Source of the DNA: Eledone cirrhosa
Taxonomy: Eukaryota
Direction: 5' to 3'
Length of the DNA: 64,000 nt
Assembly: GCA_964016885.1 (NCBI GenBank)
Contig: OZ024749.1
Coordinates: forward strand, 8,432,001 to 8,496,000
The notes beneath the pieces are model-generated. The model was not told where the DNA came from. It was given only the letters and a program-made list of their open reading frames with translations, and searched no databases. This document shows positions 40,425-42,044 of this stretch, piece by piece; position 1 is the stretch's first letter; every line of letters starts with the position of its first letter. Made by a program: the position numbers and the translations under genes.

Positions 40425-40495
<71 letters not shown>
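40425..40495. repeat. (TA)n microsatellite
   Basis: Pure TA run. Confidence 0.95.
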
Positions 40496-40499
<4 letters not shown>

Positions 40500-40670
40500 G
40501 GGGTAACAAATAATAGTTATATGCAGTCCACTTAGGTAAAGTCCAGTTATGGTATTCCAGGTAGTGGATGATATTAACGCTTGGCTTGGTTTGACTCAAC
40601 AAGGCGTTTTCATAGTGATGCTGCGGGTATGCCGTAATTCCTATGTTGTAAATACTTGGAGTAATAATAA

Positions 40671-40907
40671 ATCAGGAAAGAAGGTTGACATGGTTTGCTA
40701 TACAAAAAAGGTTTTTAATCTCATAGCTGTGTATTTTCTTCATTCTCGCATGCTCCGAAGATCTGACTGGTTATAATTTTGTATTGGCGATCGAGTAACG
40801 TGAAAATAAGCGAATAGCGATCTCTAGACCTACCAGTTCAGAGAAACAATTGTCAGCTATGAGATTAAAAACCTTTTATGTATAGCAAACCATGTCAACC
40901 TTCTTTC

Positions 40908-40912
<5 letters not shown>
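40671..40912. mobile_element. Inverted-repeat cassette (59-bp arms) enclosing a hammerhead; Penelope pLTR-like
   Basis: 40671-40729 is the near-perfect reverse complement of 40854-40912. Confidence 0.8.
40749..40861 (+). ncRNA. Type I hammerhead ribozyme, core variant CCGAAGA (probably inactivated)
   Basis: catgct-CCGAAGA-tctgactggt...accagttcaga-GAAAC-aatt-GTC-agctatg. Confidence 0.72.
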
Positions 40913-40984
<72 letters not shown>

Positions 40985-40989
<5 letters not shown>

Positions 40990-41082
40990 AAAAAGTATGA
41001 CCCGGACGGAAGAGCTCAAGCCGTTTCGACGGCTATTTCTGGACGGCTTGAACTCTGCCGTCGGGGTCATACTTTTTCCTAT
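40985..41082. repeat. ~98-bp hairpin/inverted repeat next to (TA)n
   Basis: ataggaaaaagtatgaccc...caagccgt pairs with acggcttg...gggtcatactttttcctat across an 18-nt spacer. Confidence 0.9.
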
Positions 41083-41268
41083 TTCTCACTCTACTACCCT
41101 AAGTATTGAGTACTCTGGTGCGTTATGGTCCATTTGGTTCCTTACCACATTTCCTTTGTTATATATATATAAGCAATGAGTTATTTAATTTGTTGATTAT
41201 TCAACAGATTTAATTTATAACAGATTAGAAGCACTCAACAGATATTTTGGGCGGAGTATAATATCTAT

Positions 41269-41586
41269 AATATTAATAAATGGAAGCTATCTTTATGAAA
41301 CCAATTTTATTTTATTACATATATTTCAAGGGTACCAAGATGTTGGTACGCTCTCATCAGATAAGATACAAAAATTGGTTTACAAATAGTGACATATTCA
41401 AAACTAGAACTTAATGCTGTGAATTCTATTTGAATACAACATTAAGTTCTTGTCTGAATATGTCACTATCTGTAAACCAACTTTTGTATTTTACCTGATG
41501 AGAGTGTACCAAAGTTTTAGTACCCTTCAAATATATATAATAAAATAAATATGGTTTTATAAAGATAGCTTCCATTTATTAATATT
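41269..41586. repeat. ~318-bp quasi-palindrome carrying two opposed hammerhead motifs
   Basis: Arms 41269-41426 and 41432-41586 are reverse complements with scattered mismatches and a ~5-nt centre. Confidence 0.92.
41299..41380 (-). ncRNA. Type I hammerhead ribozyme (intact core)
   Basis: Reverse strand reads aaccaatttttgtatcttat-CTGATGA-gagcgtaccaa-catc-ttggtaccctt-GAAA-t-atat-GTA-ataaaataaaattggtt. The mirror copy at ~41475-41557 (+) has GAAA changed to CAAA. Confidence 0.8.
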
Positions 41587-41650
41587 CGATAAAATAAAGT
41601 ACCAGTAATGCACTGGGTAATTGCTGGCCTTGTGCCTAAAGTAGAAACAA
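41587..41650 (+). mobile_element. SINE 3' fragment
   Basis: cgataaaataaagtaccagtaatgcactgggt...gctggccttgtgcc matches the reverse complement of the copy at 44571-44764. Confidence 0.8.
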
Positions 41651-41727: not shown

Positions 41728-41840
41728 AAGTTTGTGTACAATATGTAAACAAAAAACAATATAGCAAACAAGAATGTGTATAATAAAGATATATATATAT
41801 ATACATATATAAGATTAATGCTTGATATAATATCAAAATA

Positions 41841-41878
41841 GTCTTAACGTTTCGGACATTAGTCTATCATCAGAACAA
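41841..41878 (-). ncRNA. Minimal hammerhead motif of Penelope pLTR type
   Basis: Reverse strand reads ttgtt-CTGATGA-tagac-taat-gtcc-GAAACGTTA-agac. Stem III is the palindrome AACGTT and stem I is weak. Confidence 0.65.
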
Positions 41879-42044
41879 AATGAGAAATAAAAGACGAAAT
41901 AGAAGGATAGAGAAACGCGAGAAAAGGGATAAACGGAAAAACGTGGTGAGGGGAGTGTATGTGTGTGGTCAGTCAGCCATTTTGAATGAAAATATCTATA
42001 TGAGCTTGTGTGTATGTGTGCGTGTGTGTGCGTGTGTGTGTGAA

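What the first reader, a model, noticed from the sequence alone, without database searches (positions are those of the whole stretch)
40671..40912. Inverted duplication starts exactly at the ribozyme cleavage site
The right arm starts at the C of GTC (40854), and the left arm is its reverse complement only up to that base. Inference: the copied template had its 5' end made by self-cleavage, so this is a DNA footprint of in vivo ribozyme activity during Penelope-type insertion.
Basis: partly seen in the sequence, partly recalled or inferred. Interest (0 to 1): 0.72.

Follow-up and report, generated by a model that had tools for sequence, protein, structure and literature searches.

The report
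Back-to-back Penelope insertion near ribozyme cut
This is a small back-to-back insertion of a Penelope-type jumping gene, likely made when both DNA strands primed copying of its RNA; one arm stops within three bases of a predicted ribozyme cut, which in this copy is more likely chance, although a sister subfamily shows a small excess of stops at that site.

Summary
The inverted repeat is real (58 of 59 bases). It is part of a 414-nt head-to-head insertion of a young Penelope-like element in (TA)n. The left arm (40499-40729) stops near the predicted hammerhead cut; the right arm runs on through the ribozyme. 'Exactly' cannot be shown: the joint has a 3-nt microhomology, and the C of GTC lies on the wrong side of the cut. 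Genome-wide, about 1% of 1,273 anchored arms stop at the cut. In this copy's subfamilies (A/B) there is no peak (4 observed, 2.3 expected, of 68). In sister subfamily C the cut is the top position (7 against 1.9, of 57, P 0.003, scored by eye), with three perfect fold-backs. A larger cluster lies in stem II, and the cut site is itself a 4-nt palindrome, so cleavage is not the only reading. The firmest result: 122 of 124 head-to-head insertions pair one short (+59) with one long (+230) end, which points to double priming. The scan noted similar cases before, in this genome and three others. Odds that this copy is a cleavage footprint: about 1 in 3.

The parts
40425..40496 (.). (TA)n target, left side
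40499..40729 (-). Left (inverted) arm: element positions +230 (long end, E2) back to -1 of the predicted cut
40727..40729 (.). 3-nt microhomology shared by both arms; the true joint lies somewhere in or beside it
   Evidence: family sequence upstream of 40730; overlap of 3
40727..40912 (+). Right (direct) arm: element positions -128 to +58 (short end, E1); reads through the ribozyme
40745..40863 (+). Predicted type I hammerhead, drawn by hand: stem I 40745-54 with 40855-63; core CCGAAGA 40755-61 (U4C); stem II 40763-71 with 40832-41, one variable unpaired base each side (40762, 40842); GAAA 40843-46; one-pair stem III with palindromic loop 40847-52; predicted cut after C40854
   Evidence: no Rfam hit; activity untested
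40913..40987 (.). (TA)n target, right side

Best explanation
This is a 414-nt head-to-head insertion of a young Penelope-like retroelement into a (TA)n run, likely made by two priming events, one from each target strand, whose two cDNAs were likely joined through a 3-nt microhomology, and the left arm's stop beside the predicted ribozyme cut is probably a coincidence in this copy. Shown: the anatomy, the family, the two fixed 3' ends (+58 to +62 and +230) and their one-of-each pairing. Inferred: the GIY-YIG endonuclease nicks both strands of (TA)n; one end primes reverse transcription internally at +230 and the other at about +59 of the RNA, each beside a short UA-rich stretch; both cDNAs stop early at scattered places and are joined. 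The usual template is uncut (or precisely re-joined) across the ribozyme.
For: Family of 3,576-nt unit with RT and C-terminal GIY-YIG frame in tandem copies. 122 of 124 head-to-head pairs have one E1 and one E2 end (44 of 45 among spans over 500 nt, and 19 of 21 in a second family). In 50 of 105 mapped pairs the E2 arm lies wholly downstream of +60, so neither arm can be a fold-back copy of the other. Microhomology at 50 of 54 clean inverted joints, 3 nt or more at 24 of 54, so this joint is typical. In subfamilies A/B breaks occur at about 1 per base around the cut, with 5 observed against 3.1 expected at +1..-2 of 87 arms; 16 of 82 equal windows hold as many. Frangieh 2024 (PMC11167929): a PLE protein cuts and extends both strands, starts internally at two sites, and needs no ribozyme cleavage in vitro.
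Against: Subfamily C has a peak at the cut (7 against 1.9 of 57), pooled 11 against 4.2 of 125 (P 0.004), so some stops there may be real footprints and this copy could be one. In A/B itself 4 arms stop at +1/-1 against 2.3 expected, and at one A locus both arms start at +1 (L034). The pairs are not a random sample (loci were mostly picked for short arms). Frangieh 2024 saw no difference in start site between the two strands in vitro, which the strict one-of-each rule does not follow from.
Confidence: 0.6

Rival explanations
1. One reading: same double-primed insertion, but the left cDNA ran off the 5' end of an RNA that the hammerhead had cut, so this copy is one of a rare class (about 0.5% of arms) that records cleavage in the germ line.
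For: +1 lies inside the ambiguity interval of this joint. Subfamily C: 5 of 57 arms stop at +1 (1.0 expected, top of 59 positions) and 7 at +1/-1. Both arms start at +1 at four loci: three perfect fold-backs in C (L326/327, L335/336, L337/338) and L034 in A with a 74-nt palindromic filler found nowhere else in the genome. Two C loci restart with a short duplication at the site (L332, L333).
Against: No significant excess in A/B, the subfamilies of this copy (P 0.20). The pooled counts are overdispersed (variance/mean 1.5) and a larger cluster lies at -13..-24 (42 against 25), so a uniform null overstates the significance. C was found after a post hoc look and scored by eye with the cut known. 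The motif has U4C, no G10.1-C11.1 pair and no compensatory changes.
Confidence: 0.3
2. The small peak at +1 is real but has nothing to do with cleavage: the 4-nt palindrome that begins at +1 favours symmetric joining, the TA before it in B/C resembles the target, and reverse transcriptase pauses at RNA stems.
For: 3 of the 7 C arms at the cut are fold-backs on that palindrome, and in 2 the joint is at or beside (TA)n. Symmetric fold-backs also occur at +11, -49 and -67 in A. Breaks cluster on the 3' strand of stem II.
Against: No symmetric joint was seen at other short palindromes among the 57 scored C breaks, nor in three longer C pairs read directly. This copy's joint is not symmetric. This rival explains the family peak; for the window copy it merges with the best explanation.
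Confidence: 0.3
3. One cDNA folds back on itself, or switches to an antisense RNA, to make the inverted arm (self-priming model of Arkhipova 2013).
For: Proposed for head-to-head palindromes in PMC3846280 (passages); a few symmetric joints exist.
Against: 50 of 105 pairs have non-overlapping arms; both outer ends are fixed and sit in (TA)n. In the window each arm holds sequence that the other lacks.
Confidence: 0.08

Closest known systems
Endonuclease-bearing Penelope-like elements with an inverted 5'-truncated partner and a tail at one end (Craig 2021, PMC8557442, passages; Arkhipova 2013, PMC3846280, passages)
   Same: Head-to-head truncated copies, partial tandems, RT plus C-terminal GIY-YIG, microsatellite target, tail on one arm.
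   Different: The tail is about 170 nt, not 30-40 nt. 'Often' or 'optionally at one end' is here a near-strict rule (122 of 124).
PAc (Poseidon of Anolis carolinensis), internal initiation at two sites (Frangieh 2024, PMC11167929, main text read)
   Same: Two internal start sites downstream of the ribozyme; both strands extended; AT-rich target; uncut RNA as the dominant template.
   Different: There the start sites lie in the ORF, 30-40 nt apart, with no strand difference seen; here they lie in the 5' UTR and pair one per end. That paper found no reads ending at the cut; here a small genomic excess appears in one subfamily.
Minimal PLE hammerheads (Cervera and De la Pena 2014, PMC4209133, results and discussion read)
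   Same: Type I layout in the pseudo-LTR, long stem II, extra base after A9, tiny stem III with palindromic loop.
   Different: U4C, no G10.1-C11.1, an extra base before GAAA, and a 60-nt loop II.
R2 HDV-like ribozyme, which cuts at the element's 5' junction (PMC3774820, start of abstract only)
   Same: Precedent for a ribozyme cut matching a genomic 5' junction.
   Different: In R2 it defines the element's end; here about 99% of arms ignore the cut.
L1 twin priming (recalled; PMC2837659 listing only)
   Same: Two target-primed cDNAs joined by microhomology give a 5' inversion.
   Different: Here the inversion appears to be the rule, both start sites are fixed and internal, and the arms often overlap (55 of 105 E2 arms pass +59, none pile up there).

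Membership tests
EN+ Penelope-like element | Single ORF with RT and C-terminal GIY-YIG | tested here: met
   [quoted passage not shown] Pfam and PDB scans gave nothing.
EN+ Penelope-like element | Partial tandems forming pseudo-LTRs; inverted 5'-truncated partner; tail | tested here: met
   3,576-nt repeat unit; 124 head-to-head pairs.
EN+ Penelope-like element | RT phylogeny within PLEs | not tested
   No tree was built.
Neptune clade | Cys-rich linker before the endonuclease; microsatellite target | tested here: inconclusive
   A four-cysteine motif precedes the endonuclease and (TA)n is the target; Nematis shares such a linker; no tree.
Type I hammerhead ribozyme | Conserved core CUGANGA...GAAA...NUH | tested here: inconclusive
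   All positions present except U4, which is C; U4C is a natural, weaker variant (PMC3088659 passage). No Rfam hit.
Type I hammerhead ribozyme | Three stems around the core | tested here: met
   Descriptor hit once in the sense unit, never antisense, in 0 of 300 and 0 of 1,000 controls (the descriptor was written after seeing the motif). Stems I and II appear in the predicted fold, z-score only -0.4.
Type I hammerhead ribozyme | G10.1-C11.1 pair and compensatory changes | tested here: not met
   The two bases flanking stem II vary independently (T/A 68, A/A 26, T/T 17 of 116 copies); no compensatory change among 12 aligned copies.
Type I hammerhead ribozyme | Self-cleavage after the NUH triplet | not testable with these tools
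   Needs an in vitro assay or 5'-OH/cyclic-phosphate sequencing.
   Not met in A/B (4 of 68, 2.3 expected); met weakly in C (7 of 57, 1.9 expected).

The most novel reading that the evidence does not exclude
The atypical hammerhead does cut in the germ line, and a small class of insertions, among them the perfect fold-backs where both cDNAs end at +1, are DNA records of cut RNA; every insertion of this element is made by obligatory double priming at two fixed RNA sites, one per target strand.
Probability: 0.4. Interest if true: 0.65.

Novelty: new member of a known kind. Interest (0 to 1): 0.42.

Why it matters
[quoted passage not shown] A breakpoint census is a direct genomic test. Here it says that cut RNA is at most a rare template (about 1% of arms or less), with one subfamily hinting that it exists. 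The one-short-one-long end rule gives a testable model for how PLEs make their inverted ends and tails.

Tried and rejected
Rfam at gathering score and at E up to 10: no hammerhead. Pfam on three family frames and five relatives, and PDB sequences: nothing useful. Sequencing runs: no RNA holder listed; two contig sets of unknown kind were laid and cannot show RNA ends. Source of the L034 filler: only itself in the genome. Census in a second family with a canonical hammerhead (44 rows): unusable, because its cut lies in a TA run that attracts later insertions. Covariation test of the hammerhead: subfamilies too close. My first conclusion, 'no peak at all', rested on an anchor that missed subfamily C and was revised. 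The idea that subfamily B alone is enriched (3 of the 5 A/B cases) was post hoc, and one search added no new B break. Assembly artefact rejected: the same architecture recurs at 124 loci.

Full report
1. Observation. The arms 40671-40729 and 40854-40912 pair at 58 of 59 bases and pairing ends at 40730/40853. The window lies in a 3.0-Gb animal genome (G000). The stretch 40730-40912 matches a young repeat family: 2,093 candidates, the 40 scored at 99% identity. In intact copies the three bases before 40730 are the same as 40727-40729. So the joint has a 3-nt microhomology, and the left arm may start anywhere from -1 to +3, counting +1 as the first base after the predicted cut (40855). The right arm does not start at the cut; it runs from -128 to +58. 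The left arm does stop there and runs out to +230 at 40499. Both outer ends sit in (TA)n.

2. The element. [quoted passage not shown] The Atlas returns RT and GIY-YIG clusters at 0.95-0.98; Pfam and PDB scans were blank. It is an endonuclease-bearing Penelope-like element, Neptune-like by motif only. The ORF begins about 275 nt after the cut, so both 3' ends (+58 to +62, E1; +230, E2) are internal to the next unit's 5' UTR, as with the internal initiation of Frangieh 2024 (PMC11167929; parts 1-2 of 4 read).

3. The ribozyme. Rfam finds none. By hand there is a type I layout at 40745-40863. A relaxed descriptor, written after seeing the motif, hits once in the sense unit, never antisense, and in 0 of 300 and 0 of 1,000 controls. 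It resembles the minimal PLE hammerheads of Cervera 2014 (PMC4209133; parts 1-2 of 4 read) but has U4C, lacks G10.1-C11.1, and shows no compensatory change. U4C is a natural variant with lower activity (PMC3088659, passage). Activity is untested.

4. Breakpoint census, subfamilies A and B. An anchor at +36..+55 has 466 matches. Two probes for arms that lose homology upstream gave 89 and 102 matches; 136 distinct arms were held, 124 with a break within 175 nt. I dropped 7 duplicates or second arms of symmetric joints and 5 internal deletions. Of 87 arms breaking in +35..-49 (about 100 by recapture), 5 end at +1..-2 against 3.1 expected (P 0.20); 16 of 82 equal windows hold as many. The window copy was not caught by either probe and is not counted. 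Microhomology is the rule: 50 of 54 clean inverted joints, 24 with 3 nt or more. One locus has both arms starting at +1 around a 74-nt palindromic filler with no other copy.

5. Subfamily C changed the picture. A post hoc search (27 matches: 8 chance, 4 point changes, 15 rows at 12 loci with a break at the cut, 3 of them already counted) revealed a subfamily that the first anchor missed (807 anchor matches). I scored the 136 rows by eye over +34..-25: 57 breaks, after leaving out 6 rows of an unrelated element, 2 second arms of fold-backs, 5 internal deletions, 1 restart duplication at -1 and 65 rows with no break in view. Seven end at +1/-1 against 1.9 (P 0.003, top of 58 windows), five at +1 itself. 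Over the same range A/B give 4 against 2.3 of 68 (P 0.20). Pooled: 11 against 4.2 of 125 (P 0.004), with 3 of 58 windows as high. Against this: counts are overdispersed (1.5), a larger cluster lies on the 3' strand of stem II (-13..-24, 42 against 25), the cut site starts a 4-nt palindrome on which 3 of the 7 C cases fold back, and the scoring was not blind. Either way only 12 of 1,273 anchored arms, about 1%, were seen to stop at +1..-2, of which about 6 are excess.

6. The stronger result. Among 124 head-to-head pairs with both ends in view, 122 have one E1 and one E2 end; one exception is a rearranged E2 arm and one a true E1/E1 pair. The sample is enriched for short arms, but 44 of 45 pairs spanning over 500 nt and 19 of 21 pairs of a second family follow the rule. 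In 50 of 105 mapped pairs the arms do not overlap, which excludes simple fold-back; 55 E2 arms pass +59 and none ends in +50..+70. In 4 of 5 tandem copies E2 is followed by a TA-like stretch. Inference: both target strands prime, one at each site, and the two cDNAs are joined by microhomology. Whether one RNA or two are used is open.

7. Comparison. Inverted truncated partners and a tail at one end are known (PMC8557442, PMC3846280, PMC8969392; passages). I found no breakpoint census against the hammerhead cut, and no count of the one-of-each rule, in searches; these cover open-access text only, and no supplements were read. R2 is the precedent for a ribozyme cut at a genomic junction (PMC3774820, start of abstract). 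PMC9977147 and bioRxiv 10.64898/2026.07.22.740005 (passages) added nothing on the point. Earlier notes of this scan (read after my census) describe double priming in this genome and cut-centred palindromes in another; they are unchecked and were not used as support.

8. Verdict. A real, ordinary-kind PLE insertion. Interest 0.42.

Noticed in passing
window 41180-41590: Second PLE-type family, head-to-head, with a canonical minimal hammerhead (minus strand, 41360) and two fixed 3' ends about 93 nt apart; 2,601 candidates, best about 92% identical; 19 of 21 pairs have one end of each kind.
   Followed up: partly
window 41803-41882, minus strand: A third canonical minimal hammerhead-like motif at 41873.
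   Followed up: no
window 40989-41170: Near-perfect hairpin (40989-41081) of another repeat family that recurs next to (TA)n at other loci (L005, L341); probably another head-to-head insertion.
   Followed up: no
window 1-38070: About 38 kb of strongly skewed G/T-rich tandem array (39-nt unit); it reads like a long Pro/Thr-rich repeat on the minus strand, not tested.
   Followed up: no
L034/L035 (G000:C15:30591670-30592027): Both arms start at +1 around a 74-nt palindromic filler with no other copy in the genome.
   Followed up: yes
family positions -13..-24 (window 40831-40842): Breakpoints cluster on the 3' strand of stem II (42 against 25 expected), perhaps reverse transcriptase pausing at the hairpin.
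   Followed up: partly
G000:C4:276455937 (row): A subfamily C copy with a 9-nt deletion of +1..+9 that ends at the predicted cut.
   Followed up: no
subfamily B loci (L066, L331): Subfamily B has the A-type 5' half of the ribozyme and the C-type 3' half; it looks like a recombinant.
   Followed up: partly
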